From a virus (lineage: Duplodnaviria; Heunggongvirae; Uroviricota; Caudoviricetes), in IMG/VR virus record IMGVR_UViG_2913167280_000002: DNA of 46,386 bases; one strand, written 5' to 3'. Every line of letters begins with the position of its first letter. Position 1 is the stretch's first letter. The notes below the pieces were generated by a model that made no database searches, had not been told where the DNA came from, and worked only from the letters and a program-made list of their open reading frames with translations. Shown here piece by piece: positions 2,344 through 40,724 of this stretch. The position numbers and the translations under genes were made by a program.

Positions 2344-2432
2344 TCATTTCCTATTAGACATAGAAAACTTGTCTTATACGCAATGTAGTAAATTTCTATT
2401 GCCACATAGGAAAAGATTTCCTACCATCGTAG
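2344..2432 (+). repeat. three iteron-like direct repeats (ATTTCCTA...CATAG-type)
   Basis: catttcctattagacatag, aatttctattgccacatagg and gatttcctaccatcgtag directly upstream of the 2454 gene. Confidence 0.35.
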
Positions 2433-2453
2433 ATATAATAAATGGAGATGGTT

Positions 2454-2741
2454 ATGGATAAAGATACTGTTTTAAAAATGTTGAATCCGGCTTGTTTAAA
2501 AAAAGCGGATGAATGGGAATCTCCTACATGTGGAGAAGTTCGGGCAGTCATTGGCCTGACCGGAATGAGCGGCTCGCAGTTGGCCAAAAAACTTGGCTTA
2601 AAAGATAGTCGCAATGTTCGCAACTGGCAGATGTTAAAGGAGTCCACATCCAGATCCAGCATTCCGTATGCAGCCTGGGCGCTGCTGTGCTACTTCGCTG
2701 GGTTAGGGTTAATCTTCATTGATAACAAAACAGATGTTTGA
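2454..2741 (+). CDS. hypothetical protein, possible helix-turn-helix DNA-binding protein
   Basis: RBS GGAG 6 nt upstream; HTH-like segment GMSGSQLAKKLGLKDSRNVRNWQ. Confidence 0.4.
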   Translation: MDKDTVLKMLNPACLKKADEWESPTCGEVRAVIGLTGMSGSQLAKKLGLKDSRNVRNWQMLKESTSRSSIPYAAWALLCYFAGLGLIFIDNKTDV

Positions 2742-2764
2742 AACATGCAAATATGAGGTTTGTT

Positions 2765-3028
2765 ATGGAACTTGTACGCAAAACACGCAAAGAGTTCTTG
2801 GACCTGTATCGCATGGGCGCTTTCACTTGTGTTGTGGCTACCCAGGACGAAGTGACAAAAAGCTGGCGGCTTTTTGCTCTCAATAAAAAAGGGATTGCCG
2901 TTTTCATTGAAAAAGCCCGTGGTGGTATCCGCGAATGGGCGGGATTGAATTATGTGGCTGATTTTTGCGCAGCTATGGGGATTCGGCGCTGGGAAGTCCA
3001 TATGCCAGGAGTAAAGTCACAAAAATAG
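2765..3028 (+). CDS. hypothetical protein
   Basis: ORF with GAGG RBS; start chosen at third in-frame Met. Confidence 0.3.
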   Translation: MELVRKTRKEFLDLYRMGAFTCVVATQDEVTKSWRLFALNKKGIAVFIEKARGGIREWAGLNYVADFCAAMGIRRWEVHMPGVKSQK

Positions 3029-3263: not shown

Positions 3264-3272
3264 GGATTGAGC

Positions 3273-3620
3273 ATGTGGACGGTACTTTTTAGCCAGCGAT
3301 TTGACGACTGGCTAAATGAGCAAGAAGACGCTCTTCAGGAAAAGGTTTTGGCTGATTTGAAAAAGCTACAGGTTTACGGACCTGAGTTACCCAGGCCATA
3401 TGCCGATACCGTAAAAGGTTCTCGGTACAAAAATATGAAAGAGCTTCGCGTTCAGTTTTCTGGCCGTCCGATAAGAGCCTTTTATGCGTTCGATCCGATT
3501 CGCCGGGCCATCGTTCTTTGTGCAGGAGACAAAAGTAACGATAAGCGGTTTTATGAAAAACTGGTGCGTATAGCTGAGGATGAGTTTGCAGCACATCTGA
3601 ACACACTGGAGAGCAAGTAA
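3273..3620 (+). CDS. higB: type II toxin, RelE/ParE superfamily (HigB-like)
   Basis: RAFYAFDPIRRAIVLCAGDKSNDKRFYE motif typical of HigB/Gp49-type toxins; toxin-first gene order; stop overlaps next start. Confidence 0.6.
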   Translation: MWTVLFSQRFDDWLNEQEDALQEKVLADLKKLQVYGPELPRPYADTVKGSRYKNMKELRVQFSGRPIRAFYAFDPIRRAIVLCAGDKSNDKRFYEKLVRIAEDEFAAHLNTLESK

Positions 3621-3919
3621 TGAGAACATTAGATGAGGCGATTGCCAGCCGTTCACCTGAAAGCCAGGCGCGAATTAAAGAAATGGCAGATGAGATGATT
3701 CTTGAGGTCGGCTTGCAGATGATGCGTGAAGAACTCCAGTTATCACAAAAACAGGTTGCTGAGGCGATGGGTATAAGCCAGCCAGCAGTAACAAAGCTGG
3801 AGCAGCGCGGAAATGATTTAAAGCTGGCGACATTAAAGCGTTACGTTGAAGCTATGGGAGGCAAATTAAGCCTGGATGTTGAGCTTCCCACAGGAAAACG
3901 AATAGCGTTTAACATCTGA
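3620..3919 (+). CDS. higA: HTH (XRE-family) antitoxin, HigA-like
   Basis: HTH segment LSQKQVAEAMGISQPAVTKLE; ATGA overlap with the upstream toxin gene. Confidence 0.6.
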   Translation: MRTLDEAIASRSPESQARIKEMADEMILEVGLQMMREELQLSQKQVAEAMGISQPAVTKLEQRGNDLKLATLKRYVEAMGGKLSLDVELPTGKRIAFNI

Positions 3920-3934
3920 TCAGAACGAATGATA

Positions 3935-3961
3935 AGCCCCTGTTGCAAAGGGGCTTTTTTG
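3935..3961 (+). terminator. rho-independent terminator
   Basis: Stem GCCCCT/AGGGGC followed by TTTTTT. Confidence 0.6.
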
Positions 3962-3965
3962 TGCT

Positions 3966-4082
3966 TATAGAATTATATAATTATATATTTATATAAAAAG
4001 TGCTTTACAGGTGGGAAAAAATTTCCTATGGTTATACCCGAAACCGAGCGATACCCGCCCTGGTTAAACCGGAGATAACCCG
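3966..4082 (+). promoter_or_regulatory. conserved promoter/leader module, copy A
   Basis: AT-rich octamer array, TTTACA (4004-4009), 17-bp spacer containing the GGAAAAAATTTCC inverted repeat, TATGGT (4027-4032), then a ~45-nt leader ending in GGAG-N8-ATG. Near-identical to copies B and C. Confidence 0.6.
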
Positions 4083-4463
4083 ATGAGCATGATTAAAATC
4101 CGCAAAAACGCTTTCCTTAAAATTCAAACTATCCTGGCTGGTTCTGTTGGCGTGATTTGCCGTTCTTCTTCAAGCCGCATCGATGACGGCTACGATGATG
4201 AGTATCGTGTGTCCTCGTGCGATGAGGCTTTAACCTGGCTGAAGGAGAATCAGGAACGTGCCCAGGTATATCTGGAAACAGAGAACGGCAATCAGATGTT
4301 GCGTATTAGCGGCCGTTATGGATTTGAAACTACATTCATTGCCTATTTTAATCAGGCTTACTTTGACAAGGAGCTGGCCTGGTACACTGATCGCATGATC
4401 AAAAGCGAGCCAGCCCCGATTACACCGCCGAACAATAAACCATTTTTATTCCTCGTTAAGTAA
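4083..4463 (+). CDS. hypothetical protein
   Basis: First gene behind module A; GGAG RBS. Confidence 0.45.
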   Translation: MSMIKIRKNAFLKIQTILAGSVGVICRSSSSRIDDGYDDEYRVSSCDEALTWLKENQERAQVYLETENGNQMLRISGRYGFETTFIAYFNQAYFDKELAWYTDRMIKSEPAPITPPNNKPFLFLVK

Positions 4464-4526
4464 ACACAATACGCAAAGTGTCATTTTGACACTTTGCGAG
4501 TGTTAATATTGTGCGAGGAGAATGCT

Positions 4527-4799
4527 ATGACGGGTTATGAATTGAAATTATGGCGTCGTGGGATGAACTGGACGCAGGAGCGAGCCGCCGAAGAATTTGG
4601 GATATCGTTGGCTACATATAAGCGATATGAGAAGGGGGAGCCGCCGAGGGTCATTGAGATGGCCATTCGCGTTCTGTCGTTTGACGATATGGTGAAGGAT
4701 CTTTCACACCTTGATAAAGACGCGATTCTGTTAAGGCTGCAAACCCTTGTATGGGAAAAGGTTAAAGTGTCGTCAGAATTGGAACAAGGGATCAAATGA
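4527..4799 (+). CDS. small HTH (XRE-like) transcriptional regulator
   Basis: GAGGAG RBS 6 nt upstream; HTH segment MNWTQERAAEEFGISLATYKRYEKG. Confidence 0.5.
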   Translation: MTGYELKLWRRGMNWTQERAAEEFGISLATYKRYEKGEPPRVIEMAIRVLSFDDMVKDLSHLDKDAILLRLQTLVWEKVKVSSELEQGIK

Positions 4800-4845: not shown

Positions 4846-4873
4846 ACAAAAACCGCCTTGCCGGGCGGTTTTC
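4846..4873. terminator. bidirectional rho-independent terminator
   Basis: Stem ACCGCC/GGCGGT flanked by an A-run and a T-run. Confidence 0.55.
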
Positions 4874-5571
4874 AGTCTGAAATTTAAATCTTGCTTGGTA
4901 GGCTGGATTTAAAAAGACACCTCTTGATTGGGGCGGCTTTCTTGCGTCTAAAGATAATCAAATCTTTTTGCGCCTGCAACCCCTTTTTTACTGGTGCCCA
5001 TTTCAGACTCACGCTCGCGTCGTTGTCTTTGCCACTTCGTTGGGTTCGGTGTTTTTGGGCGAAGTGGCGCGCGGGTATGCGTACAAGGGGAAAGTGTGCT
5101 GACGCAAGCCAGGAACAGCGATCTAAACTAAGTCGAGTCTGAGAAAGGCAGGAGTGCGACAACTCGCCTGTGCTCTATGAGCAGAAGAAGGTATATCAGA
5201 CGACCAATGGCATGATTGTGGGCCACAGGGCGCACACGGCGGCGAAGCATTGGAAACGATGTGGAGCTATCTGGTGGCATGAGTTCCGGTACTCGATCTC
5301 GAGCTTTTTTTGATGCTTTTGAGAAGGGGCCGGAACTCCGGTAAAGGGCACCCTGTATGGGGGGAGGGGGGGTTGTGTCTGAAGGGTGGTTATCGGTTAT
5401 GGTGGAATTATGATGCGTAGAAAAGCGAGTTTGCTGCAAGCTATTGGGTCCATTATTTCTTTGTTTCCGGCAGTTGATCATTTTCGTCATATGGCGACAC
5501 GTTCGAGTATGGGCTTGGCGCGTGACGCTGACGCTATTCGAAAGGATTTTCAGAAAGTCTCTGGCGTTGAT

Positions 5572-5608: not shown

Positions 5609-6760
5609 TTATGGTCTGCTTTTCTGTGCCAGCTTATCAGCACATGTTTTTATCAGATCCTGTAGTGTCCTGGCTGGCAGGTTTGCATCCAGAACGCTGA
5701 GTATGCTGTTGTGATCAGCTTGGTCGACTACTTTGCCTGTCGGTGGTAGTAGCTTGAGCTGAGGATTCAGGTTTTCGTCAAAGCTGATAAGTGCTCTGGC
5801 GTTTCTGAGCAGATCAAGAAGTAAGGCTGATATCACATTTTCCTGAGTCATTGCTGGCAGATTTAGCGCCGCTTTGGTTTTCCCTGTTGCCTTGTCAAAC
5901 TCCTTGATTAGTTCCTTTCTGTAGTTCGGTTCCGTTAATAGCCGATTATGCTCTGTTGCCGCGCGGATAATCGTTTTTTCCTGGTACAGTCGTTTAGCCA
6001 GATCGCGCTCGTACTGTGTTTTTAACACGCTGCTGATAGCGTTAAAGGCTTCAATGTAGGCCAGCTTGATATCTTTCACGCCTGGACCGTCGATGCTCTC
6101 CATGAGCAAGGTAAATCCGTCTTTTGTCATGCGATAGATTGTTATTTCGCGGTCGCTTCCTTCCAGCGGTCGTTGCTCTTTAAAGAAGTGACGCGCCGCA
6201 GCCGTGCGAGGAATGCGTAGCGCATCGATGGCCATAACGATGGAATTGTTTGTGGTGCTGAATGCCTGGGCAACATCGGCTGAGGTTGTGAGTGGCTCGT
6301 TGTTGCACACTTTAATGTAAAACATCGGTTTGGCGTTGAGCGTATCGACAACCTCACGAGCATTGTTTGGCGAGACGGTTACGGTCGCGGCCGTTTGCGC
6401 GTTCTGGCTGAAATAGCAGTCTTCCAGCCGTTCGAATACATCCCACGCCTGATCGGTTTCGAGCATTTTAGCGTGACGTGCAGCCCCGCGTTCTGTCCAG
6501 AGGATGAGAGAGCGAGTTTTGGGGGAAATTTGCACCTCATTTTGTGACTCGTTTAAAACTAGTCGCAAATTTTTGAGTTCATCACCAACAGCTTTAAAGA
6601 AGTGCTTCCCCTCAATGAACCGAGTTTTATTTTCATGGTGATTTTGCTGTATACGGATTGCTTCTGTTCCATAAAGGCGGGCGAGTAGCTCAGTTGTGAT
6701 TACTGGAATCTGATTATGCAGGATAGGCTGTAGGGTGTTAACGATCGGAAGCGTTTTCAT
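5609..6760 (-). CDS. phage antirepressor-like protein (Ant/Rha-type)
   Basis: 383 aa; N-terminal region resembles antirepressor/Rha regulatory domains; preceded by an overlapping small ORF as in P1 icd-ant. Confidence 0.5.
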   Translation of the reverse strand: MKTLPIVNTLQPILHNQIPVITTELLARLYGTEAIRIQQNHHENKTRFIEGKHFFKAVGDELKNLRLVLNESQNEVQISPKTRSLILWTERGAARHAKMLETDQAWDVFERLEDCYFSQNAQTAATVTVSPNNAREVVDTLNAKPMFYIKVCNNEPLTTSADVAQAFSTTNNSIVMAIDALRIPRTAAARHFFKEQRPLEGSDREITIYRMTKDGFTLLMESIDGPGVKDIKLAYIEAFNAISSVLKTQYERDLAKRLYQEKTIIRAATEHNRLLTEPNYRKELIKEFDKATGKTKAALNLPAMTQENVISALLLDLLRNARALISFDENLNPQLKLLPPTGKVVDQADHNSILSVLDANLPARTLQDLIKTCADKLAQKSRP

Positions 6761-6948
6761 TTTGCACCTCCCATAACAACTTTGGTTACGAGGGAGATTT
6801 TTGCGTCAGAAACAGCGTTATCGTTGCTGGCGATGCGCATAGCTTCGCGCTCGATGATTTCAGCCAGGCGGAATTTATCGGCGTATGAGGCTTTCTTGAG
6901 AAGGATCTTTACGAGGTTGACGTAATAGTCATGGGGTAGGTTTGTCAT
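6757..6948 (-). CDS. small protein translationally coupled to the antirepressor (icd-like position)
   Basis: 63 aa; ATGA overlap with the antirepressor start. Confidence 0.4.
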   Translation of the reverse strand: MTNLPHDYYVNLVKILLKKASYADKFRLAEIIEREAMRIASNDNAVSDAKISLVTKVVMGGAK

Positions 6949-7113
6949 TGTGATGATTCCCTTAAAGGTTAAGGATACTCACCACCGTCAGGTTCCAATC
7001 ATTGGGTGGTGAGACGTGCAGGGTTGGAACTACCGGACACAATGACGAACCGGCGAGTCTTACGACTCCCCCGCACGCCCCACCATAATTTGGGTGTAGC
7101 AGTGCTTTACGCA

Positions 7114-7200
7114 TAAAAAAACCGCTAACGCGGTATGCGCCATTGTGTCTACGGGGTTCCAATCCCGGCCGTAGATTTTGCTACGGCTCGGAAAGTGTCC
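7114..7200 (-). ncRNA. candidate small regulatory RNA upstream of the antirepressor operon (c4-like position)
   Basis: Minus-strand terminator (stem ACCGC/GCGGT at 7121-7134 plus T-run); hairpin 7149-7174 whose loop carries GGTTCCAAT; no ORF. Boundaries approximate. Confidence 0.3.
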
Positions 7201-7982: not shown

Positions 7983-8374
7983 GTGCTGATCGGATTCGCG
8001 GTCCTTTCAGCATTACGTTGTTGTATAAACAACCACGCAAGCACAAGCAGCAAGTTGATTTTACCCAAAAGGTAATAATAGTCCACTATTATGCTTCAAA
8101 AAATTGTGGTTCTTGTTGTGTCTGCAAACTCACAGATTGTGGGTAGGTTACTGATTTTGTGAAAATAAACTGGTTTTTTCGTTTAATTTATTTCCTATTA
8201 CTAATCTTAAAATAATCGTAAAATACCTGTGGACCTTCCCGCCGATTCGCACCCGGGCACCGACTTTAGGGGAGGATTTCCTGTTGCCGTACATGCAAGC
8301 ACAAGCAGCCGTGCTTGCTCTCGCGTTGTTTTCGTCGGTGGGGATGCCGTGAAACGGCCTGTAAGGGCCATACA

Positions 8375-8497
8375 ATGAAAAAATACTGTATGTGTATTTT
8401 TATCGTTGTTACTGGGGCTTTGTTTACGCCACATGGGGAGGGTTGGAAGATTACTGATAACGCTCTGAATGTGACGATAAACATTAGCAGCAAGTAG
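8375..8497 (+). CDS. candidate small hydrophobic peptide (40 aa)
   Basis: MKKYCMCIFIVVTGALFTPHG...; AAGGG about 8 nt upstream; ends just before the terminator at 8503. Speculative. Confidence 0.25.
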   Translation: MKKYCMCIFIVVTGALFTPHGEGWKITDNALNVTINISSK

Positions 8498-8502
8498 CGA
8501 TT

Positions 8503-8526
8503 AGGCCCCTTCGGGGGCCTTTTTTA
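8503..8526 (+). terminator. rho-independent terminator
   Basis: Stem AGGCCCC/GGGGCCT, loop TTCG, then TTTTT. Confidence 0.65.
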
Positions 8527-8747: not shown

Positions 8748-8996
8748 TTACTTCTGGTTGTATTGAGCCTTGAGTAACTCAAAAGACTTTGTCAGCACTT
8801 CTTTCAATGACATATCCATTGAGCTGGCGAACGTTTTGTACTCGCGTTTAAATTCAGGGTCGACGTTAAACGCCATTTGTGCCCCACCTGATTTGGTTCT
8901 GGTTGGCGTTTCAGTCGGGTCGAAAACCTGCGGTTGTTCGATCGATGGCGGTACGCCTTTGCTGTTCTTCTTTGGTGGTTTTGATGGTGCGGCCAT
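8748..8996 (-). CDS. ribbon-helix-helix centromere-binding protein (ParG-like)
   Basis: 82 aa, basic flexible N-terminus then RHH-like MAFNVDPEFKREYKTFAS...; AGAGGGGA RBS; directly downstream of parA. Confidence 0.55.
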   Translation of the reverse strand: MAAPSKPPKKNSKGVPPSIEQPQVFDPTETPTRTKSGGAQMAFNVDPEFKREYKTFASSMDMSLKEVLTKSFELLKAQYNQK

Positions 8997-9039
8997 GTGT
9001 ATCCCCTCTTATATAAATCTATAAAACTATAATTATATA

Positions 9040-9693
9040 TTACGCGGCAGTAGTCAGAGCCTCAAGCTGGTTGATAATCCCCTGAATAACGTCGTCTGCC
9101 TTTTTGCGTGGCGCAACGTATGAGCACTCAATGAGGCTTAAGCCCTTATCCTGAGCTTTGCTCAGAGCTGGCTTGTGGGGAATGTACTTATCGACAACAA
9201 AGTATGGCGTATTAGCCAGGTACTCTTGGGCTTCGATGTAGTCAGCTTCGTTTTCAGCCGCGCCGGAAAACACCATGCAAATTTTCTTGATTGGTACGCC
9301 CTTTTTAACGATGCCGTGAGCAGTGTTAACGGTGGTTTCAAGGTCATCGGTAGAGAATCGGGTTGGCAAAATAACCATATCCAGAAATTCAGATAGCTTC
9401 GGTACTGATTCAGATGCGTAGGCACCGCCATCAACGATAACCAGGTCGTATACTTCTGATTCGATGATTTTCTGGACTTGTGATGGCGTGCCGCACGGCT
9501 GCGCCGCGATTGCAGGTTCGATATTGTTGGCCATTCTGCGTTGTACCCAACGCGTTACCGTTCCGTTAAGCACATCCATATCGATCAGGCATACATTCCA
9601 GCCAGCCTTTGCATAAGCAACTGCTAAAGCACGGGCAATGGTTGATTTGGTTACGCCGCCTTTTCCGTTGAAAATACCTACAGATATAGTCAT
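9040..9693 (-). CDS. parA: partition ATPase ParA (small type Ib)
   Basis: Deviant Walker A GKGGVTKST; about 217 aa; GGAG RBS before the second in-frame Met. Confidence 0.8.
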   Translation of the reverse strand: MTISVGIFNGKGGVTKSTIARALAVAYAKAGWNVCLIDMDVLNGTVTRWVQRRMANNIEPAIAAQPCGTPSQVQKIIESEVYDLVIVDGGAYASESVPKLSEFLDMVILPTRFSTDDLETTVNTAHGIVKKGVPIKKICMVFSGAAENEADYIEAQEYLANTPYFVVDKYIPHKPALSKAQDKGLSLIECSYVAPRKKADDVIQGIINQLEALTTAA

Positions 9694-9714
9694 TTGTCGA
9701 GACTCCATGTGTTT

Positions 9715-9825
9715 GATTATATAATTCTATAAATCTATATTTATAGAATGAGGTAAGCATAACCAACTTTTGAGCGGATGAAAAGCACTTTATATAATTA
9801 TATAAATCTATAATATTTAAGCGGG
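9715..9825. repeat. AT-rich octamer arrays upstream of parA (candidate centromere and promoter)
   Basis: Two clusters of TTATATAA/TTATAGAT-type units. Confidence 0.4.
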
Positions 9826-10308: not shown

Positions 10309-10965
10309 TCATAACCAGTTGACAACACTAACTACGCGGCCCAGAACTTTATAACGCTTAAATTCCTCGTTATTCAGATGCTTAGTGTTCATTTCAGCAT
10401 CCCTTTCGGTTGACAGCATAACAGCATTGTCACCCGGTATGACTCTACAGTGCCTCAAAACAACCAGGCCATTTCTGTCTTCAAGGGCATAGATCCCCTC
10501 ATGAATCTCTGTATCGTCTGTATCAATCAGGACTTGGGAGCCAGGGGATATTGTTGGTGACATTAACTCATCGTTGCTCTGGAGAACTGACAGAGACGAT
10601 GGGTTGATGTTCTTGCTTCGTAGAATCTCCTGTTCTATCGCCAGCACTGGCTTTTCTCCGGCGTGCGATGCTATGTCATTTTTTATAGCTACAAGCCCAG
10701 GAATAACAGGAGCGTTAGTATTCTGGGGTGGGAACGGGTTATCTGTTAAGCACGCGATATAAGGCGCTGATGCTTTCAGGGCGTGAGCGATTTTCTTGAT
10801 GGCAGGTATAGATGGTTGTCTTAATCCGGCCTCATAGTTCTGCAAGGTGCTTAAGCCTATTCCAGTGACTTGCTGGAGATCTCCGGCAGTCATGCCGGAT
10901 TGTTTCCGTAGAGTCTGAATGCGCAGACCTATTTCTTTCTTGATGTTCTCGTCGTTGCTTTTCAT
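10309..10965 (-). CDS. CI-like prophage repressor (HTH plus LexA/S24-like C-terminal domain)
   Basis: N-terminal HTH (LQQVTGIGLSTLQNYEAG) and C-terminal S24-like region; divergent from the early operon. Confidence 0.75.
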   Translation of the reverse strand: MKSNDENIKKEIGLRIQTLRKQSGMTAGDLQQVTGIGLSTLQNYEAGLRQPSIPAIKKIAHALKASAPYIACLTDNPFPPQNTNAPVIPGLVAIKNDIASHAGEKPVLAIEQEILRSKNINPSSLSVLQSNDELMSPTISPGSQVLIDTDDTEIHEGIYALEDRNGLVVLRHCRVIPGDNAVMLSTERDAEMNTKHLNNEEFKRYKVLGRVVSVVNWL

Positions 10966-11002
10966 GTCTCATCAATCGTGAATGGTGGGTTATTTATACA
11001 TT

Positions 11003-11121
11003 ACCACATTTAGTGGTTTTCACGCGGTAAGACGAGATGTGGACCACAAATAGAAGGCTATTTTTTGTTTCGCCCATTGAAAAACTCACGATATGTGGTT
11101 TTAATACCACATATCGTGGTT
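11003..11121. promoter_or_regulatory. immunity-switch operator cluster
   Basis: ACCACATTTAGTGGT (11003-11017), CTCACGATATGTGGTT (11085-11100) and ACCACATATCGTGGTT (11106-11121) in the divergent intergenic region; rightward promoter-like TTGAAA-N17-TTAATA overlaps the last two. Confidence 0.5.
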
Positions 11122-13111: not shown

Positions 13112-13489
13112 GTGAGACGCGATCTGGATAGCTTGTTTGAGCTATGGGCGCTGTGGGTGCGCAATGGCTGCAACGCCCGTAGCGGTTTCGCGTCGATGTT
13201 AGAAATGATGATGGTTACGCGTTGCCAGTTTACCGGAGGGGGCGGCGCACCAAATGACTCACTGGAAACCAGTATCGAGGGAGCGGTGACGGCCCTCACG
13301 GTAGTTGATGAGACTGCGGCGCTGGTTGTCCGAATTGAATACGGGGCGTGGGAGATTCGGGGCCTCGACATAAATGCACCGCATATTGATAAAGCCCACG
13401 CCCTTTCTCTTAGTCTCAGACAGTATCGCCGGAAGCTGGCAAAAGCCAGGGCGTATGTTGTCGACTATTTGAAAAAGCGAAGAGAGTAA
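13112..13489 (+). CDS. hypothetical protein
   Basis: GTG start with GGGAG RBS; last gene before module B. Confidence 0.3.
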   Translation: MRRDLDSLFELWALWVRNGCNARSGFASMLEMMMVTRCQFTGGGGAPNDSLETSIEGAVTALTVVDETAALVVRIEYGAWEIRGLDINAPHIDKAHALSLSLRQYRRKLAKARAYVVDYLKKRRE

Positions 13490-13542
13490 AAGTGTCATTT
13501 TGAGCTGTTTTGATGGTGTGTAGACATCGGGAACATCGAAAA

Positions 13543-13658
13543 TCTATAAATATATAATTATATATTTATATAAAAAGTGCTTTACAGGTAGGAAAAAATT
13601 TCCTAAGGTTATACCCGAAACCGAGCGATACCCGCCCTGGTTAAACCGGAGAAATCTG
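13543..13658 (+). promoter_or_regulatory. conserved promoter/leader module, copy B
   Basis: Near-identical to copy A, with differences in the -10 (TAAGGT), the spacer and the last 7 nt. Coordinates approximate to within 1 nt. Confidence 0.6.
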
Positions 13659-14726
13659 ATGAATAAACAAGTAATTATTTCTGACTGGATCAACAACCCT
13701 AACAGCCTGTTAAGCACTGATACTGGCTACCTATTACGCCATGTTAATGGTCGTATGGTCAAAAGCGATGAGCACGAAACCTTTTTCTTTGTTGAAGACG
13801 ATGGGCGCATCTATGAGGATGGTTACTCTTATGAAGCCCAAACTGGTTGTATCCCTGCGGAGCTGGTGGACGTAACAGAAGATCTGCGCAAAGCATGGCT
13901 TGAACAGCAGCAGCGCGGAGATGATTACGTAAACACCTATCAGGAACGCCAGAACGCGCGTCTTGCCCGATATATTGCTCGTGCAGAAAAAGCCAGAAAA
14001 GAAGGTGCGGTAGCGCATAAGCGAGCGCATGACCTGTTGGATGTGATCCCGTTAGGCCAGCCGATTTTAGTTGACCATTATAGCGCGAAAGGCCATCGCC
14101 GCCGTTTGTCTAAAGCTGATGCGTTATTCAGAAAAGCGTTTGTTGAATGCGAAAGTAAAGCATCACACTACGAGAGCAAAGCCGCAGGTGTTGGTCGTAA
14201 TGGAATTTCGTCTGATGATCCTGATGCGCTATTTAAGTTGCTTCGTAAGCTGCAAGGCTGCATGAAGTCACACGTCAAAATGAAGGCCGCAAATAAGGCC
14301 ATTCGCAAATACAAAAAAGACCAATTACAGCAGCTTTCTGCATTAATCGATCTCAGGTTTACAGAAAGCGAAGCCAAAGAGTTACTGGCCGGAGATTTCT
14401 GTGGGCGCATCGGATTCCCTTCATACGCACTGAGCAACAATAACGCCGAAATCAAACGACTACAGAGCCGTATTAAGGAGCTTGAATCGGTCAAGTCTGT
14501 AACAGGAGCACAGCGCGAAGAATACGACGGCTTTTCTATGGAGATAGATCCAGAGGATAACCGCATCCTGTTTTATTTCCCTGGCAAACCAGAGGCAAAC
14601 ATTCGTTCGCTGCTTAAATCACGCGCCTTTAAGTGGAGTCCAACCCGTAATGCATGGGTTCGCAAGATTACTCCAAACGCCCTGGCTGATGCCCGATATC
14701 TGAAAGAATCGCTATTGAAAGCCTGA
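13659..14726 (+). CDS. hypothetical protein (355 aa)
   Basis: First gene behind module B; GGAG RBS. Confidence 0.5.
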   Translation: MNKQVIISDWINNPNSLLSTDTGYLLRHVNGRMVKSDEHETFFFVEDDGRIYEDGYSYEAQTGCIPAELVDVTEDLRKAWLEQQQRGDDYVNTYQERQNARLARYIARAEKARKEGAVAHKRAHDLLDVIPLGQPILVDHYSAKGHRRRLSKADALFRKAFVECESKASHYESKAAGVGRNGISSDDPDALFKLLRKLQGCMKSHVKMKAANKAIRKYKKDQLQQLSALIDLRFTESEAKELLAGDFCGRIGFPSYALSNNNAEIKRLQSRIKELESVKSVTGAQREEYDGFSMEIDPEDNRILFYFPGKPEANIRSLLKSRAFKWSPTRNAWVRKITPNALADARYLKESLLKA

Positions 14727-14803
14727 CAGTAAGCCTACGGCGGGATGTCTCCCGCCGTATATAGAATTATATATTTATATAAATGTATAAGGACGCCTCG
14801 ACA

Positions 14804-19643: not shown

Positions 19644-19767
19644 TACCGCCTGTGATTGGGTAAAGCCCATCTACCTGACTGATCACGACATCGATGTTAT
19701 GGACCGCCAGACAAAGAAAGATATTCTGGCTCATAACAGGGCATGGGAAATCAACTGCCGAAAGTAA
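19558..19767 (+). CDS. o-spanin lipoprotein (Rz1-like), overlapping the i-spanin gene in another frame
   Basis: Signal peptide with lipobox LIASC; starts inside the i-spanin gene in a different frame. Confidence 0.45.
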   Translation: MYSRVLTIWLMTMLIASCGSRGSVPVVVDTACDWVKPIYLTDHDIDVMDRQTKKDILAHNRAWEINCRK

Positions 19768-19936
19768 TATATATTTCTATAATTATATAAATATATAGTT
19801 ACAACATTCTATGCGCTTTTCTCATGGGTGCACGCATCAACCATGTTTGTCTGATATGCCGCCGCGCCCAAAAATCCTGAATTTATTGGCTGGGATTTTC
19901 GTGCGCGGCGCCACACCAGACAAACAAATCAAATAT

Positions 19937-20012
19937 GGCCCCTTAGCTCAGTGGTTAGAGCAGGCGACTCATAATCGCACGGTCATCGGTTCAAGTCCGG
20001 TAGGGGCCACCA
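19937..20012 (+). tRNA. tRNA with CAU anticodon (Met or lysidine-modified Ile)
   Basis: 76 nt; 7-bp acceptor stem, D-arm GCTC/GAGC, anticodon loop CTCATAA, T-loop TTCAAGT, encoded CCA; one G-A mismatch at the top of the anticodon stem. Confidence 0.75.
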
Positions 20013-20315: not shown

Positions 20316-20903
20316 ATGGAGGCAATTGCATTGTTTAATCTGATTTATGCAGATCCCCCCTGGGAATACAAAGACAAGTGTAAGGATGGGAATCGTGGCG
20401 CTGGTTTTAAGTATCCAACGATGAAAGCTGAGGAGATTGCTCGTATTCCTGTCTGGCAGCTTGCTAATCCTGAATCGTGTTTGTTGGCCATGTGGTGGGT
20501 TCCGACTCAGCCAGAAGAAGCGTTGCTGGTGGTGAAAGCATGGGGATTCAGGCTTATGACCATGAAGGGCTTCACATGGAACAAATGTGGTAGCCGACAA
20601 CCAGATAAGCTGGTGATGGGAATGGGGCATATGACTCGTGCAAACAGTGAAGATTGCTTGTTTGCAGTGAAAGGCAAACTACCGACACGTCTTGATGCGG
20701 GGATCATTCAGTCGTTTACATCGCCTCGTCTGGAGCATTCTCGGAAGCCTGATGTGGTCCGTGACAAGCTGGTAAAGCTGTTAGGCGATGTTCCTCGTAT
20801 TGAGCTGTTTGCTCGCGGTGATTTACCTGATGGCTGGCATGGCTGGGGCAACCAGTGCAACGGAGGTATCCAGTTGCATGATGCTCTCTGGCAAGTGTCA
20901 TAG
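20316..20903 (+). CDS. MT-A70-family DNA N6-adenine methyltransferase
   Basis: DPPW catalytic motif in LIYADPPWEY near the N-terminus; 195 aa. Confidence 0.7.
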   Translation: MEAIALFNLIYADPPWEYKDKCKDGNRGAGFKYPTMKAEEIARIPVWQLANPESCLLAMWWVPTQPEEALLVVKAWGFRLMTMKGFTWNKCGSRQPDKLVMGMGHMTRANSEDCLFAVKGKLPTRLDAGIIQSFTSPRLEHSRKPDVVRDKLVKLLGDVPRIELFARGDLPDGWHGWGNQCNGGIQLHDALWQVS

Positions 20904-21015
20904 AATTATATAATTATAGATTTATATAAAAAGTGCTTTACAGGTGGGAAAAAATTTCCTATGGTTATACCCGAAACCGAGCGATACCCGCCCTGGTTAA
21001 ACCGGAGATAACCCG
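20899..21015 (+). promoter_or_regulatory. conserved promoter/leader module, copy C
   Basis: Identical to copy A from the -35 region to the ATG, one substitution in the AT-rich box; TTTACA at 20937-20942. Confidence 0.6.
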
Positions 21016-21285
21016 ATGAAAGTACAAGACCGTGAAGTAGTAAAAAACCTCCTGCAATACCTGACCTCAAAAAACCTGACGGGCAGCGTTGAGTTCCGTG
21101 AAGCGTTAAAACATTTCAACGTCACTACGGTTTATCGTTGGGAAAACAAACATTCTGAAAGACCGTATGTGGTGGATGTTTTTGCGCCTGATATTGAGTG
21201 CGGTTTTGAGCGTCATTCGTTCAAGGAGAAACATTCCGCTGATGTTTTTTGTGAGGTTGTATGTGCGGCAGGAGATGATGAGTGA
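21016..21285 (+). CDS. hypothetical protein
   Basis: First gene behind module C. Confidence 0.4.
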   Translation: MKVQDREVVKNLLQYLTSKNLTGSVEFREALKHFNVTTVYRWENKHSERPYVVDVFAPDIECGFERHSFKEKHSADVFCEVVCAAGDDE

Positions 21286-37931: not shown

Positions 37932-40724
37932 ATGGCCAGCAATAAGAACTTTAAGCTGGCTTTTGAAATTGGCGGCAAAGTTGCCGCCTCTCTCCCCAAA
38001 AGTTTTACTACAGCTAATCAGGCTGTTGCTAAATTAAATGCCGAGCTTGCTGGATTAACGAAAGAACATGGGGAAATTCAAAAGCTACAATCTGTAAAAG
38101 TAAAGGTTGGACAGACTGCCCTCGAATATCATAAAGCTGCCGCTCGCGTTGAAGAGTTACAGAAGCAAATAAAAAACACGGCCAATCCAACCAGAGCGAT
38201 GCTTCGTGACTTTGAGAAGGCAAAAACACATTCATCGAATTTACGAGCATCACTACGTTCTCAGCGTGAAGAACTGGCCGCTTTAAAGTCTGCCTATCAG
38301 GGAGCTGATACATCTGCCAGAGCTTTGGCCTCAAGAGAGAAAGAGCTTAAAGCCAGCATTGATCGTAATCGTGAGGCTCAGGCCCGTAGCGTTGAGCAGG
38401 TTAACCGCTACAGAACGGCTTTGGCTTTAGCCAGAGCAAATGTTCAGCAAGTGAAAAAACAGCAGGAGGAACTTAACCGGGCATTAGAAAAACAACGTAT
38501 TGATAAAATTAACAGCTATAAAAATGCGTTGGCTGAAGCACGGAAAAATGTTCTTGCAGTAAAACGTGCTCAGGAGGAGTTAAACCGCGCGTTGGAAAGG
38601 CAGCGTGAATTGAAGCGAGAGCATCTTGGTGAGGCAAAGAGTCAACTTGTAAGGTCAGGATTACAAACTGGTGCTGTAGCTGCTGGTGCATTTGCTGCTG
38701 CTAACAATGCAGCAAATTTTAATCGTGAAAACAAAATGATTGGTCTTACGGCAGATATGAAGCCGGAAGAAGTTCAGGCGATGGGGCAGGCGATGCTTGT
38801 TACCGGAACGGCTACCAACCAGTTTGCATCTGATATTCAGGCCGCTCAGGGGTTTCTCGTCGCTGCTGGGCAGGATTATAAAGAGGCTCAGGCGAATCTA
38901 CTAACTATTGGACGAACAGCTACAGCTACTGGCTCTGATATCCTCGATGTCTCGAAAGCATCATTTACATTAAGTGACTCATTGAAGATTGATCCATCTC
39001 AAATGAAGTCTGCAATGGGGATTCTGGTTCAGGCAGGGAAAGAGGGAAACTTTGAATTTAAAGATATGGCCAAAAATCTTCCTGTGCTTGGTGCTCAGTT
39101 CCAGGCATTAAAAATGGGAGGTAAAGAAGCCGCCGCGACGATGGGGGCAGCTTTGCAGATAGCTCGCAAAGGTGCTGCAACTTCGGATGAGGCTGCTAAT
39201 AATATGAACAACTTTTTGGCGAAAATACTTTCCCCTGAAACACTAAAAAAAGCAAAGAAAAATTTCGGTGTAGATTTATATAAAATTGTCACAACAGCGC
39301 AGAAAAAAGGGAAGAATCCATTCGAAGCTGCAATGCATTCTGTCATGAAAATGACTAAGAACGGAGATCAGAAGTTACTTGGTGAGCTATTTGGCGATAT
39401 GCAGGTTCAGAACTTTGTTCGTCCGATGATTCAAAACTGGAAGGAATACCAGAGAATCAAAGCAACATCTCTTGGGGCTGGAAGTGCTGTTATTGACCGC
39501 GATTTTGCCAACATAACGAAAGACAATGCGGAGCGATTGAAACAATTACGTATTCAGGCTAGCAATGCATCATTAAGTTTTGGTCAGGCCTTGCAACCTG
39601 CTTTGAATGCCGCGCTTAGTGTTTTGGTTCCGCTGATTACAAAAATTAGTGAATTTGTAGCTAACAACCCCAATTTTGTGTCTCAGATTGTGATGGCGGC
39701 AGGTGCGTTTCTAACCATGAAAAGTGTGGTTATAGCGTGTAGGGTAGCTATGCTGGCTTTATCTGTAGCGACAAAGCTAACACCCTTCGGGTGGATTCAG
39801 ATGGCTATATCTGCGCTGGTTGCCGCAGGAATATTGCTCTATCAGAATTGGGATAAGATCAGAGATTATGCTGTCAGAGTTTGGCCTTCTGTTAAGGAAT
39901 ATACAGTTAAATCATTTGAGGCTATAAAAAACTTTATCTTAAACTTTGATCTCAATGGATGGATTATATCTATGTTTGGTAAAACATGGGATTATCTTTC
40001 CAACATAAACTGGAGTTCGGCAGGAGTAAGAATTTACAGTACATTAATTAGTGTTTTTAAATGGATGTCTCCGCTTCCGTTCTTAATTAAAGCATTTAAA
40101 CTTACAACAAATTACCTTTCTGGTATTAACTGGAGCGAAACAGGAAAGAAGATCATAGATACACTGGTATCTGTTTTTATGCGTTTTTCACCAGTTGGAC
40201 TCTTTATAAGAGCATTCCAATCTGTAACGGCTTATTTATCTGGAATAAACTGGAGTGAGTCAGGTGCAAAAATAATTGAGACGTTAATCACTGGGATAAA
40301 ATCAAAAGCAAATGCTTTAATTAATGAAGTGAAAGGCGTTTTTTCTTCTGTACGTGAGTATTTACCGTTCTCTGACGCGAAAAAAGGTCCATTCTCACAG
40401 CTAACAAAGTCAGGTGGTGCAATAATGACTACTCTGGCATCAGGCGTTAGCAGGAATAACAGCTTACAGAATGCAATAGCAACCAAGTTCGGGCAATCAA
40501 ATTTATCACCTCACGGGATATCTGCCGCCGGGACTTCTGGACCTCGCCAGAACGTTAACGCTGTGACTGGTGGAATAACCTATTCACCTGTAATCAATCT
40601 TCCGGCTGGTTCACCAAAGGAAACTGAGGCGGCAGCTAAAAGAGCATTAGATGCGGGATATTCTGATTTTGAGAAGAAATTGAGTGCTCATATGTTCCAA
40701 CAACGGAGATTAAGTTTTGGATGA
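37932..40724 (+). CDS. tail tape measure protein
   Basis: 930 aa, coiled-coil-rich N-terminal third, hydrophobic segments mid-protein. Confidence 0.8.
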   Translation: MASNKNFKLAFEIGGKVAASLPKSFTTANQAVAKLNAELAGLTKEHGEIQKLQSVKVKVGQTALEYHKAAARVEELQKQIKNTANPTRAMLRDFEKAKTHSSNLRASLRSQREELAALKSAYQGADTSARALASREKELKASIDRNREAQARSVEQVNRYRTALALARANVQQVKKQQEELNRALEKQRIDKINSYKNALAEARKNVLAVKRAQEELNRALERQRELKREHLGEAKSQLVRSGLQTGAVAAGAFAAANNAANFNRENKMIGLTADMKPEEVQAMGQAMLVTGTATNQFASDIQAAQGFLVAAGQDYKEAQANLLTIGRTATATGSDILDVSKASFTLSDSLKIDPSQMKSAMGILVQAGKEGNFEFKDMAKNLPVLGAQFQALKMGGKEAAATMGAALQIARKGAATSDEAANNMNNFLAKILSPETLKKAKKNFGVDLYKIVTTAQKKGKNPFEAAMHSVMKMTKNGDQKLLGELFGDMQVQNFVRPMIQNWKEYQRIKATSLGAGSAVIDRDFANITKDNAERLKQLRIQASNASLSFGQALQPALNAALSVLVPLITKISEFVANNPNFVSQIVMAAGAFLTMKSVVIACRVAMLALSVATKLTPFGWIQMAISALVAAGILLYQNWDKIRDYAVRVWPSVKEYTVKSFEAIKNFILNFDLNGWIISMFGKTWDYLSNINWSSAGVRIYSTLISVFKWMSPLPFLIKAFKLTTNYLSGINWSETGKKIIDTLVSVFMRFSPVGLFIRAFQSVTAYLSGINWSESGAKIIETLITGIKSKANALINEVKGVFSSVREYLPFSDAKKGPFSQLTKSGGAIMTTLASGVSRNNSLQNAIATKFGQSNLSPHGISAAGTSGPRQNVNAVTGGITYSPVINLPAGSPKETEAAAKRALDAGYSDFEKKLSAHMFQQRRLSFG

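What the first reader, a model, noticed from the sequence alone, without database searches (positions are those of the whole stretch)
4083..4799. Small unknown gene followed by a small HTH regulator: anti-defence (acr-aca-like) architecture
Module A drives a 126-aa protein of unknown function followed by a 90-aa XRE-type HTH protein and a terminator. That layout is typical of anti-CRISPR or anti-restriction loci with an autorepressor. The shared inverted repeat suggests the HTH protein could also regulate modules B and C.
Basis: inference. Interest (0 to 1): 0.45.

Follow-up and report, generated by a model that had tools for sequence, protein, structure and literature searches.

The report
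Unknown small gene beside separate regulator
In a 48-kb E. coli phage-plasmid, a fast-evolving 126-residue protein of unknown fold is made from one of four promoters that share one operator, while the small regulator gene next to it appears to have its own promoter and operator rather than controlling it, so the pair looks like an anti-defence locus but probably does not work as one.

Summary
ORFs 4083-4463 (126 aa) and 4527-4799 (90 aa, XRE-type HTH), a terminator hairpin (4848-4873) and a 120-nt promoter-leader cassette present three times are all real.

The acr-aca reading is only partly supported. The cassette palindrome GGAAAAAATTTCC fills the 17-bp spacer of TTTACA/TATGGT. A fourth copy, in the same position, sits in the promoter of another HTH gene (99 aa, 2442-2741). 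Two Vibrio phage-plasmids have homologous cassettes driving homologues of that 99-aa regulator and of the 126-aa protein, and no HTH-90 homologue was found in the one compared gene by gene. The 99-aa protein is therefore the likelier cassette repressor, an arrangement that recalls the kor regulons of IncP plasmids.

HTH-90 has its own conserved 27-bp palindrome (4472-4498) and an extended -10. It persists where the 126-aa gene is absent, and its relatives sit next to defence systems (upstream of two, divergent from a third).

The 126-aa family has no Pfam, PDB or PADLOC match. It is dispensable, evolves faster than the maintenance genes, and is sometimes fused to other domains. An entry-phase host-interference role is plausible but untested.

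Downstream, 4876-5390 looks like a conserved, unannotated structured RNA.

The parts
3934..3956 (+). Intrinsic terminator of the upstream HigB/HigA-type toxin-antitoxin operon. It isolates cassette A from upstream transcription.
   Evidence: Terminator scan; Gp49 and HTH_3 Pfam hits for 3267-3919.
3965..3996 (.). AT-rich array of 8-bp units (TTATAKAW, 3-4 units) directly upstream of the -35. The same arrays lie at the parA promoter and five other sites.
   Evidence: 37 matches against 0.23 expected; inverted and direct repeat output.
3967..4086 (+). Cassette ('module') A: promoter, operator, fixed leader and ribosome-binding site, ending at the ATG.
   Evidence: Three-copy direct-repeat family D1; alignments.
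4004..4032 (+). Sigma-70-type promoter TTTACA (4004-4009), 17-nt spacer, TATGGT (4027-4032).
   Evidence: Promoter scan, 9 of 12 matches.
4014..4026 (.). 13-bp palindromic operator GGAAA-AAA-TTTCC, which fills the 3' part of the spacer and abuts the -10.
   Evidence: Three exact copies. All three cassettes of a Salmonella relative carry the variant GGAAAATATTTCC. A palindrome at the same position occurs in the Vibrio cassettes.
4033..4082 (+). Invariant 5' leader with ribosome-binding site GGAG (4072-4075). Its last ~20 nt (AAACCGGAGATAACCCGATGA) are also recognisable in the Vibrio cassettes.
   Evidence: Alignments. No significant fold of its own (z -1.2).
4083..4463 (+). Gene for the 126-aa protein: an alpha/beta domain of about 100 residues, then a disordered Pro-rich linker and a short hydrophobic C-terminal motif (PFLFLVK).
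   Evidence: ORF; phrog_8090, unknown function; family alignments; AF2 model with pLDDT 77 and pTM 0.74.
4472..4498 (.). Perfect 12+3+12 palindrome CGCAAAGTGTCA-TTT-TGACACTTTGCG, the candidate operator of HTH-90.
   Evidence: Inverted repeat I2; unique in the window. The core AAAGTRTCA-N3-TGAYACTTT is kept in four diverged relatives, with symmetric changes in the outer bases. As RNA the hairpin is -22.5 kcal/mol, z -4.2.
4501..4509 (+). Extended -10 element TGtTAATAT (TGnTAAWAT in the relatives). It gives the HTH gene a promoter of its own, with the palindrome over the -35 region.
   Evidence: Read from the alignment. Not called by the consensus scan, which requires a -35.
4527..4799 (+). Gene for the 90-aa XRE-family HTH protein (HTH-90).
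   Evidence: HTH_3 6e-7 and HTH_31; phrog_6962; weak RstR and MqsA-family hits.
4848..4873 (.). GC-rich hairpin flanked by an A run and a T run (bidirectional terminator type).
   Evidence: Conserved in the relatives.
4876..5390 (+). ORF-less stretch that is better conserved than the genes around it and folds as a + strand structured RNA. It stays linked to HTH-90 in every relative whose fetched sequence covers it.
   Evidence: 88-91% nucleotide identity against 69-73% for the neighbouring genes. RNAalifold gives -143.7 kcal/mol on the + strand and -107.7 on the - strand, with compensatory pairs. No Rfam match.
2399..2427 (+). Fourth promoter of the same design: TTGCCA, then a 17-nt spacer containing AGGAAAAGATTTCCT (2408-2422), then TACCAT.
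   Evidence: Present upstream of the orthologous gene in every relative whose fetched sequence covers it.
2442..2741 (+). Gene for the 99-aa HTH-like protein, the best candidate for the repressor that binds the cassette operator. It is followed by a 96-aa ORF (2738-3028).
   Evidence: Weak matches to mobile-mystery-protein-A and to a phrog repressor family. Its Vibrio homologues lie behind the cognate cassette.
13544..13663 (+). Cassette B, which drives the DUF3560 gene (13659-14726) and the genes after it.
20900..21019 (+). Cassette C, which drives the 89-aa gene (21016-21285) and the genes after it, towards the ParB-like and methyltransferase genes.

Best explanation
The window is a roughly 48-kb phage-plasmid with P2-type tail genes, an IncFII-type RepA and a ParA.

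The 126-aa gene is a stand-alone cargo gene of a plasmid-style global regulon. It is not the front half of an acr-aca operon. Its expression unit is a fixed cassette made of an 8-bp AT-rich repeat array, a sigma-70 promoter whose 17-bp spacer is filled by a 13-bp palindromic operator, and an invariant leader with ribosome-binding site. The same cassette heads two other operons. A variant with the same geometry heads the operon of a 99-aa HTH protein.

I infer that the 99-aa protein represses all four promoters, including its own. The cassettes would then fire in a burst when the element enters a cell that has no repressor, and stay shut during plasmid maintenance.

The 126-aa protein is a small alpha/beta domain with a flexible tail ending in a short hydrophobic motif. 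I infer that it acts by binding and neutralising a host or competitor factor during establishment, that is, anti-defence or host interference.

HTH-90 is a second, independent unit. It is read through from cassette A, but it also has its own extended -10 promoter overlapped by a 27-bp palindrome, which it most likely binds to autoregulate. Its transcript runs into a highly conserved structured-RNA region.

What is shown: the anatomy, conservation, co-occurrence patterns, dispensability and evolutionary rate. What is inferred: which protein binds which palindrome, the timing of expression, and the biochemical role.
For: Cassette anatomy and copies.

A fourth operator copy, at the same position, lies in the promoter of the 99-aa HTH gene. 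This holds in the window and in every relative whose fetched sequence covers that gene, including L025, which has lost cassette A.

All three cassettes of the Salmonella relative carry one variant of the palindrome.

Two Vibrio phage-plasmids have cassettes with the same design and a recognisably homologous translation-start region. There the cassettes drive the 126-aa homologue and the operon holding the 99-aa homologue. In the V. campbellii element, blastp against 40 kb found no HTH-90 homologue.

The operators of the CI-type repressor are a different sequence.

HTH-90 has its own palindrome and extended -10, both conserved while synonymous sites are saturated.

The pairing breaks in L025, L009, L026, L022 and Vibrio.

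The 126-aa gene is lost or truncated in L025 and L021. Its dN against Salmonella is 0.257, compared with 0.035-0.105 for RepA, ParA and HigBA.

The N-terminal domain is fused to varied C-terminal domains. Two of these fusions carry faint precomputed LPD25 hits; LPD25 is a domain of the polyvalent proteins of conjugative elements (PMC5512222).

No housekeeping family or fold was matched.
Against: No binding, transcription or phenotype data exist, so the repressor assignment rests on co-occurrence only.

Cassettes B and C lie upstream of lysis and virion genes, so the cassettes could equally be middle or late lytic promoters switched on by an activator. One candidate is the 125-aa protein at 13112-13489, which is also conserved in Vibrio phages.

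A conserved position next to the rep, par and TA genes in three lineages also fits a plasmid-maintenance role.

A fast rate and dispensability are typical of many accessory genes, not only anti-defence genes.

The 126-aa gene is present in all 62 plasmid records that matched the locus query, which is less variable than a typical anti-defence hotspot.
Confidence: 0.45

Rival explanations
1. Canonical acr-aca locus. The 126-aa protein inhibits CRISPR-Cas or restriction, and HTH-90 is its Aca-type autorepressor acting at the cassette palindrome, and so also at cassettes B and C.
For: A small unknown gene lies directly upstream of a co-directional small HTH gene in a mobile element, with no terminator between them. 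The pair is kept in Salmonella and Klebsiella relatives. The unknown protein has no housekeeping match.
Against: The palindrome next to HTH-90 is a different sequence. It lies downstream of the 126-aa gene and is unique in the genome.

The cassette palindrome follows the 99-aa HTH gene across lineages. No HTH-90 homologue was found in the V. campbellii element, which has the cassettes.

HTH-90 persists without the 126-aa gene, and the reverse also occurs.

Relatives of HTH-90 sit next to defence systems.

There is no match to any anti-defence or Aca-annotated protein.
Confidence: 0.12
2. The cassettes are middle or late lytic promoters switched on by a phage activator or antiterminator made from the early operon. 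The 126-aa protein would then be a lytic-cycle function such as host takeover or superinfection exclusion.
For: Cassettes B and C precede operons that run into the holin, endolysin and virion genes. A conserved 125-aa protein is encoded immediately upstream of cassette B and has Vibrio homologues. A palindrome centred near -20, next to a -10, recalls the design of P1 late promoters; this comparison is from my own knowledge and was not tested.
Against: In the Vibrio phage-plasmids the cassettes were found only in front of small genes in the rep/par region and near parA, not before the lysis or terminase genes.

The promoter already has workable -35 and -10 elements at the optimal 17-bp spacing, which fits repression better than activation.

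The promoter of the 99-aa HTH gene carries the same site.

The 125-aa protein matched no Q-type or other known regulator.
Confidence: 0.18
3. The 126-aa protein is a plasmid-maintenance accessory, for example in replication control, copy-number control or partition, rather than a conflict protein.
For: Its homologues lie just after the rep gene, or the rep-TA genes, in three phage-plasmid lineages. It shares AT-rich arrays with the parA promoter. It is co-regulated with the regulator operon next to rep.
Against: It is lost or truncated in otherwise related elements (L025, L021). It evolves 2.5 to 7 times faster at non-synonymous sites than RepA, ParA, the ParG-like gene and HigBA. Homologues also occur in the early region of a Vibrio phage that has no rep gene nearby and as fusions on a conjugative-plasmid-like contig.
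Confidence: 0.17
4. The pair is a type II toxin-antitoxin system, with the 126-aa protein as toxin and HTH-90 as an antitoxin that has an internal promoter.
For: The gene order and sizes resemble HigBA and MqsRA. HTH-90 gives weak hits to the MqsA and HipB antitoxin families. The HTH gene has its own promoter and operator.
Against: The 126-aa gene is intact where HTH-90 is truncated by IS110 (L009), and it occurs where no HTH-90 homologue was found (V. campbellii). HTH-90 occurs alone in L025. No toxin family or fold was matched. A bona fide HigBA pair already lies next door.
Confidence: 0.05

Closest known systems
Acr-Aca operons of phages and plasmids (anti-CRISPR gene plus an Aca HTH autorepressor)
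   Same: A small gene of unknown family sits directly upstream of a small co-directional HTH gene in a mobile element. The HTH very likely autoregulates through an inverted repeat.
   Different: In known loci the Aca operator overlaps the promoter in front of the acr gene. Here the HTH-linked palindrome lies after the first gene and serves a separate promoter. The first gene's promoter carries another operator, shared with three other promoters and linked to another regulator. The pairing is not conserved, and no known Acr or Aca family was matched.
The kor (kil-override) global regulon of IncP-1 plasmids such as RK2: KorA, KorB and KorC operators repeated in the promoters of the kle, klc and kla operons and of the regulators' own operon. 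This comparison is from my own knowledge.
   Same: One short palindromic operator sits inside the core promoter of several operons, including that of a small autoregulated HTH gene. Near-identical promoter cassettes stand in front of small genes of unknown function. A second repeated element is shared with the partition promoter. The expected outcome is a burst of expression on entry, then repression.
   Different: No sequence relationship to KorA, KorB or KorC was found. The host element is a phage-plasmid, and two of the cassettes head long operons that run into lytic genes. Repression has not been shown.
HTH regulators placed in front of anti-phage defence operons (here Septu PtuAB, an Mrr-like enzyme and an Nhi/AbiO-like helicase)
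   Same: Proteins 53-57% identical to HTH-90 occupy this position on plasmid-like contigs. In this family HTH-90 is likewise followed by cargo: a conserved RNA-like region and, in relatives, a membrane protein of 214-218 aa.
   Different: In the window no protein-coding defence gene follows HTH-90, and a terminator-type hairpin lies between it and the RNA-like region.
P1-type immunity circuitry (c1 with dispersed operators; the immI region c4-icd-ant). This comparison is from my own knowledge.
   Same: The element carries a C4 antisense RNA, an icd-like ORF and an antirepressor gene (5609-7190, minus strand), and has one operator dispersed over several operons.
   Different: The dispersed operator is a symmetric 13-mer inside the promoter spacer, not the asymmetric 17-mer of C1. 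The primary repressor here is a LexA/CI-type protein with different operators.

Membership tests
Acr-Aca locus | A small (<200 aa) gene directly upstream of, and co-directional with, a small HTH gene in a phage or plasmid | tested here: met
   ORFs 4083-4463 and 4527-4799, 63 nt apart, in a phage-plasmid.
Acr-Aca locus | The inverted-repeat operator of the HTH overlaps the promoter that drives the acr gene | tested here: not met
   By position only. The palindrome that travels with HTH-90 lies at 4472-4498, downstream of the first gene. The promoter palindrome at 4014-4026 co-occurs with a different HTH gene. Binding itself was not tested.
Acr-Aca locus | The HTH belongs to a recognised Aca family | tested here: inconclusive
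   Only generic HTH_3 and HTH_31 hits, plus weak RstR and MqsA-family hits. There is no PDB relative, and phage relatives are annotated only as transcriptional regulators. No dedicated Aca library was available.
Acr-Aca locus | The same HTH family recurs downstream of diverse unrelated small genes | tested here: not met
   Four contexts of relatives at 53-57% identity were examined. In three the HTH lies next to defence genes: upstream of Septu and of an Mrr-like enzyme, and divergent from an Nhi-like helicase. The fourth (L014) showed no recognisable defence gene.
Acr-Aca locus | The first gene inhibits a defence system | not testable with these tools
   No match in PADLOC, Pfam, NCBIfam, PDB or BFVD. 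This needs infection or establishment assays.
Type II toxin-antitoxin pair (HigBA/MqsRA-like order) | The two genes strictly co-occur | tested here: not met
   The 126-aa gene is intact beside an IS-truncated HTH in L009 and occurs where no HTH-90 homologue was found in V. campbellii. HTH-90 occurs alone in L025. A gene is inserted between them in L026.
Type II toxin-antitoxin pair (HigBA/MqsRA-like order) | The first protein belongs to a known toxin fold or family | tested here: not met
Plasmid global (kor-type) regulon | One operator present in the core promoters of several operons, including that of the regulator gene itself | tested here: met
   The operator fills the spacer of promoters at 2399-2427, 4004-4032, 13581-13609 and 20937-20965. 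The pattern repeats in Salmonella, Yokenella and two Vibrio lineages.
Plasmid global (kor-type) regulon | The regulators are homologous to KorA, KorB or KorC | tested here: not met
   The 99-aa protein gives only weak generic HTH matches. The ParG-like 82-aa protein has no Pfam hit. The element works like a kor regulon but is not a member of it.
Plasmid global (kor-type) regulon | The regulator binds the operator and represses transcription | not testable with these tools
   Needs gel-shift or reporter assays.
XRE-family HTH regulators (Pfam HTH_3) | Sequence match above the curated threshold | tested here: met
   HTH-90 scores 29.8 bits against a cut-off of 23.

The most novel reading that the evidence does not exclude
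The 126-aa protein would found a new family of entry-phase anti-defence or host-interference proteins. It has a previously undescribed alpha/beta domain that is combined with interchangeable C-terminal peptides or domains. It is deployed by P2-tailed phage-plasmids of Enterobacteria and Vibrio from an ancient promoter-operator-leader cassette, under a kor-like repressor. Next to it would sit a new structured RNA of about 400-500 nt, controlled by HTH-90.
Probability: 0.25. Interest if true: 0.7.

Novelty: new variant of a known kind. Interest (0 to 1): 0.5.

Why it matters
This phage-plasmid is carried by about 1.3% of complete E. coli genomes (72 of 5,426), including the reference strain ATCC 25922. 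Near-identical elements have been isolated as plaque-forming Yersinia phages. None of the genes or sites discussed here has an assigned function.

If the reading is right, it has four consequences.

1. 'Small gene plus HTH' is not enough to call an acr-aca locus. The position of the operator and its co-occurrence across lineages have to be checked.
2. Phage-plasmids would use a plasmid-style dispersed-operator regulon, conserved from Vibrio to Escherichia, to time a set of fast-evolving cargo genes. That makes those genes good candidates for establishment or anti-defence functions.
3. There is a protein domain family with no Pfam entry and no structural neighbour to characterise.
4. There is a strongly conserved, unannotated structured RNA to characterise.

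Tried and rejected
Searches on the 126-aa protein that found nothing:
- Pfam, NCBIfam and PADLOC gave no hit, and PHROGs gave only an unknown-function family.
- A profile search against PDB sequences found nothing.
- The AFDB libraries were unavailable.

Literature searches that found nothing or were off target:
- The protein accession, the Yersinia phage names, and PA0613 with antitermination gave no papers.
- pSLy3 turned out to belong to the unrelated SSU5 supergroup.

Ideas tested and dropped:
- A Q-type antiterminator role for the 125-aa protein. It gave only a weak PA0613-family hit, no PDB relative, and no real similarity to a QuuD sequence that I recalled from memory.
- HTH-90 half-sites near cassettes B and C (AAAGTGTCA at 13489, CAAGTGTCA at 20892). 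They are not conserved in the Salmonella relative, so they are probably not functional.
- Antisense control of the cassette leader by the C4, isrK, ryfA or large RNA. Duplex energies were no better than for shuffled sequences.
- A structure in the leader itself, which was not significant.
- Homology between the E. coli 96-aa and Vibrio 77-aa proteins, which BLASTP did not detect.

Technical failures:
- An exact-pattern scan of genome contigs for the RNA-like region found nothing. The viral-contig scan found only members of the same element family.
Full report
**What the window is.** The 46-kb window is an almost complete phage-plasmid. It carries:
- an invertase (94-648);
- an IncFII-type RepA (830-1810), with a DnaA box downstream;
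- a HigB/Gp49-HigA toxin-antitoxin pair (3267-3919);
- a ParA (9040-9708, minus strand);
- a LexA/CI-type repressor (10309-10965, minus strand);
- Ref and DUF1064 genes, lysis genes, and P2-type head and tail genes.

Sixty-two plasmid records of 44-52 kb match it, 59 of them at 95-99% identity. These include the 48,488-bp plasmid of E. coli ATCC 25922. Three plaque-forming Yersinia phages (vB_YpM_39, 41 and 44) match as well. The locus is in 72 of 5,426 complete E. coli genomes, almost always on a plasmid.

**Check of the observation.**
- There is a 126-aa ORF at 4083-4463. A 90-aa ORF at 4527-4799 scores above the Pfam threshold for HTH_3.
- A GC-rich hairpin with flanking A and T runs lies at 4848-4873.
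- A 120-nt cassette, 3967-4086, recurs at 13544-13663 and 20900-21019.
- The cassette consists of an AT-rich array, TTTACA, a 17-nt spacer, TATGGT, a leader of about 45 nt with GGAG, and the ATG.
- The palindrome GGAAAAAATTTCC fills the last 13 nt of the spacer.
- A Salmonella relative keeps the three cassettes at the same three places. All three carry the variant GGAAAATATTTCC, even though synonymous sites between the two elements are saturated. The cassettes are therefore under strong selection.

**Which protein goes with the cassette palindrome.** A fourth copy of the palindrome (AGGAAAAGATTTCCT, 2408-2422) lies in TTGCCA-17 nt-TACCAT. It has exactly the same geometry and sits in front of a 99-aa HTH-like gene (2442-2741) and a 96-aa ORF. 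This copy is present upstream of the orthologous gene in every relative whose fetched sequence covers it. That includes a Yokenella element that has lost cassette A and the 126-aa gene.

Two Vibrio phage-plasmids, from V. campbellii and V. parahaemolyticus, have three to five cassettes of the same design:
- an array of 8-bp AT-rich repeats;
- a -35, then a 17-nt spacer filled by TAGGACGAAAAGTCCTA that overlaps the -10;
- an invariant leader.

The last 20 nt before and through the ATG are recognisably the same as in E. coli. In both Vibrio elements one cassette drives the homologue of the 126-aa protein. Another drives a 76/77-aa gene plus the homologue of the 99-aa HTH protein. A blastp comparison found no HTH-90 homologue in the 40 kb of the V. 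campbellii element that was examined.

The operators of the CI-type repressor (CCACATATCGTGG type, 11000-11120) are unrelated.

The simplest reading is that the 99-aa protein is an autoregulated repressor of all the cassettes. This is an inference from co-occurrence. Binding has not been shown.

**The HTH next to the 126-aa gene.** Between the two genes lies a perfect 12+3+12 palindrome (4472-4498), unique in the window. Its core, AAAGTRTCA-N3-TGAYACTTT, is kept in relatives whose proteins are only 65-76% identical. Its outer bases change symmetrically. It is followed at a fixed distance by an extended -10, TGnTAAWAT. HTH-90 therefore has a promoter and a probable operator of its own, placed where they cannot control initiation of the 126-aa gene.

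The pairing is not obligatory:
- In the Yokenella relative the palindrome, HTH-90 and the downstream non-coding stretch persist, while cassette A and the 126-aa gene are replaced by an opposite-strand ORF.
- In L009 the HTH is truncated by IS110 while the 126-aa gene is intact.
- In some E. coli plasmids a 570-nt insert carrying an opposite-strand 141-aa membrane-protein gene separates the two.

On plasmid-like contigs, proteins 53-57% identical to HTH-90 sit next to defence genes. Two lie directly upstream of a Septu system and of an Mrr-like enzyme. A third is divergent from an Nhi/AbiO-like helicase. This is the pattern of a regulator of downstream cargo, not of an Aca.

**The 126-aa protein.**
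- It has no Pfam, NCBIfam or PADLOC match and belongs to a PHROG of unknown function.
- A word-indexed search found only 17 close relatives. A full profile search found 38 cluster representatives.
- The family has a domain of about 100 residues (IRKNAxKKI...GII...DDSYD...WL...NYxDA...GPYxFxDxFxAYFD), a variable disordered linker, and a short C-terminal motif. The motif is LFLV in the enterobacterial forms and NVVSLCAYRQR in many Vibrio-type forms.
- Some members are fused to other domains. One is a domain homologous to the Vibrio 76/77-aa protein that is co-operonic with the regulator. Two others have faint LPD25 matches. LPD25 is a domain reported only in the polyvalent proteins of conjugative elements (PMC5512222).
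- Homologues lie just after the rep or TA genes in three phage-plasmid lineages, in the early region of a Vibrio phage, and near the ParAB and TraM genes of a conjugative-plasmid-like contig.
- The gene is dispensable. It is absent in L025 and deleted at its 5' end, together with cassette A, in L021.
- Against the Salmonella relative its dN is 0.257. That is like the other first genes of the cassettes (0.245 and 0.468). The maintenance genes are far lower: RepA 0.105, ParA 0.035, the ParG-like gene 0.058 and HigBA 0.05-0.065.

These properties fit a conflict or host-interaction protein better than a core maintenance protein, but they do not prove it.

**Most likely mechanism.** Cassette A is one output of a dispersed-operator regulon that works like the kor regulons of IncP plasmids. 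In a naive cell the promoters are free and fire. As the 99-aa repressor accumulates, they shut down. A partition-linked protein acting on the AT-rich arrays may contribute, because the same arrays occur at the parA promoter. The 126-aa protein would thus be made in a burst at establishment. I infer that it binds a host or rival factor through its domain and tail motif. HTH-90 is transcribed both by read-through and from its own autoregulated promoter.

The main alternative is that the cassettes are lytic-phase promoters turned on by an early phage protein. This cannot be excluded, because cassettes B and C precede operons that run into the lysis and virion genes. The Vibrio elements argue against it, since there the cassettes were found only in the maintenance region.

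**Comparison with what is known, and novelty.** The locus looks like an acr-aca pair but fails the test of operator position and the test of conserved association. It is not a toxin-antitoxin pair, because the two genes do not strictly co-occur. It works like a kor-type regulon without any homology to the Kor proteins. I therefore rate it a new variant of a known kind. The protein family, and the cassette conserved from Vibrio to Escherichia, appear to be undescribed.

**Side observation.** The 515 nt after the HTH-90 hairpin (4876-5390) contain no conserved ORF, because indels break every frame. Even so, they are 88-91% identical in relatives whose flanking genes are 69-73% identical at the nucleotide level. 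On the + strand they fold into a long-range closed structure with compensatory changes and many G-U pairs. RNAalifold gives -143.7 kcal/mol on the + strand and -107.7 on the opposite strand. There is no Rfam match. This looks like a new structured RNA that travels with HTH-90.

Noticed in passing
window 4876-5390 (+): An ORF-less stretch is more conserved (88-91% nt) than the genes on either side (69-73% nt). It folds on the + strand into a structure of about 400 nt closed by CCCCUUUUUU/GGGGGGAGGGGGGG, with compensatory stems. It has no Rfam match and stays linked to HTH-90 even where the 126-aa gene is absent. This is a candidate new structured RNA.
   Followed up: partly
window 3965-3996, 9009-9024, 9717-9745, 9790-9815, 13542-13573, 14759-14790, 19767-19798, 20898-20929: Arrays of 8-bp AT-rich units (TTATAKAW) give 37 matches against 0.23 expected. 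They lie at the three cassettes, around the parA promoter and at three other sites. The Vibrio relatives have analogous (AAGAAATA)n arrays at their cassettes and near parA. They may be binding sites for the small ParG-like partition protein (8748-8996), which would link partition to gene control.
   Followed up: partly
window 4062-4086, compared with L002 and L012 cassettes: The translation-start region of the cassette (AAACCGGAGATAACCCGATGA) is nearly the same in E. coli and Vibrio phage-plasmids, whose proteins are only 33-37% identical. No structure or antisense partner was found that would explain this.
   Followed up: partly
window 5609-7190 (-): A P1 immI-like unit: a C4 antisense RNA (7002-7090) and an isrK-like RNA (7115-7187), upstream of a 63-aa icd-like ORF (6757-6948) and an ORF6N/Rha antirepressor gene (5609-6760).
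   Followed up: no
window 8229-8525 (+): A full-length match to Rfam ryfA (143 bits). In enterobacteria this RNA is part of a small-toxin/antisense pair (my own knowledge). Here it lies next to the partition genes.
   Followed up: no
window 13112-13489 (+): A 125-aa protein is encoded immediately upstream of cassette B. It has a weak PA0613-family match and homologues in about 90 Vibrio and Pseudomonas phages and in the Vibrio phage-plasmid. It may be a lytic-phase regulator. No known regulator family was matched.
   Followed up: partly
window 13489-13503 and 20892-20900: A 15-nt stretch identical to the left half of the HTH-90 palindrome (AAAGTGTCATTTTGA) lies just upstream of cassette B. A half-site with one mismatch abuts cassette C. 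Neither is conserved in the Salmonella relative.
   Followed up: yes
L026 (NZ_CP020497.1) 850-1420; L022; the matching position in the window is 4510-4526: Some E. coli variants carry a 570-nt insert with an opposite-strand 141-aa membrane-protein gene between the palindrome/-10 and the HTH-90 start. Salmonella and Klebsiella relatives carry a membrane protein of 214-218 aa after the RNA-like region (L006 5159-5803, L008 1480-2136), which the window lacks. The neighbourhood is a hotspot for cargo genes.
   Followed up: partly
window 45631-46026 and 39989-40273: Three tandem 132-nt repeats near the tail-fibre end of the window, and three 45-nt repeats spaced 120 nt apart inside the tape-measure gene (37932-40724).
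   Followed up: no
window 19937-20009 (+): A tRNA gene between the lysis genes and the MT-A70 methyltransferase gene.
   Followed up: no
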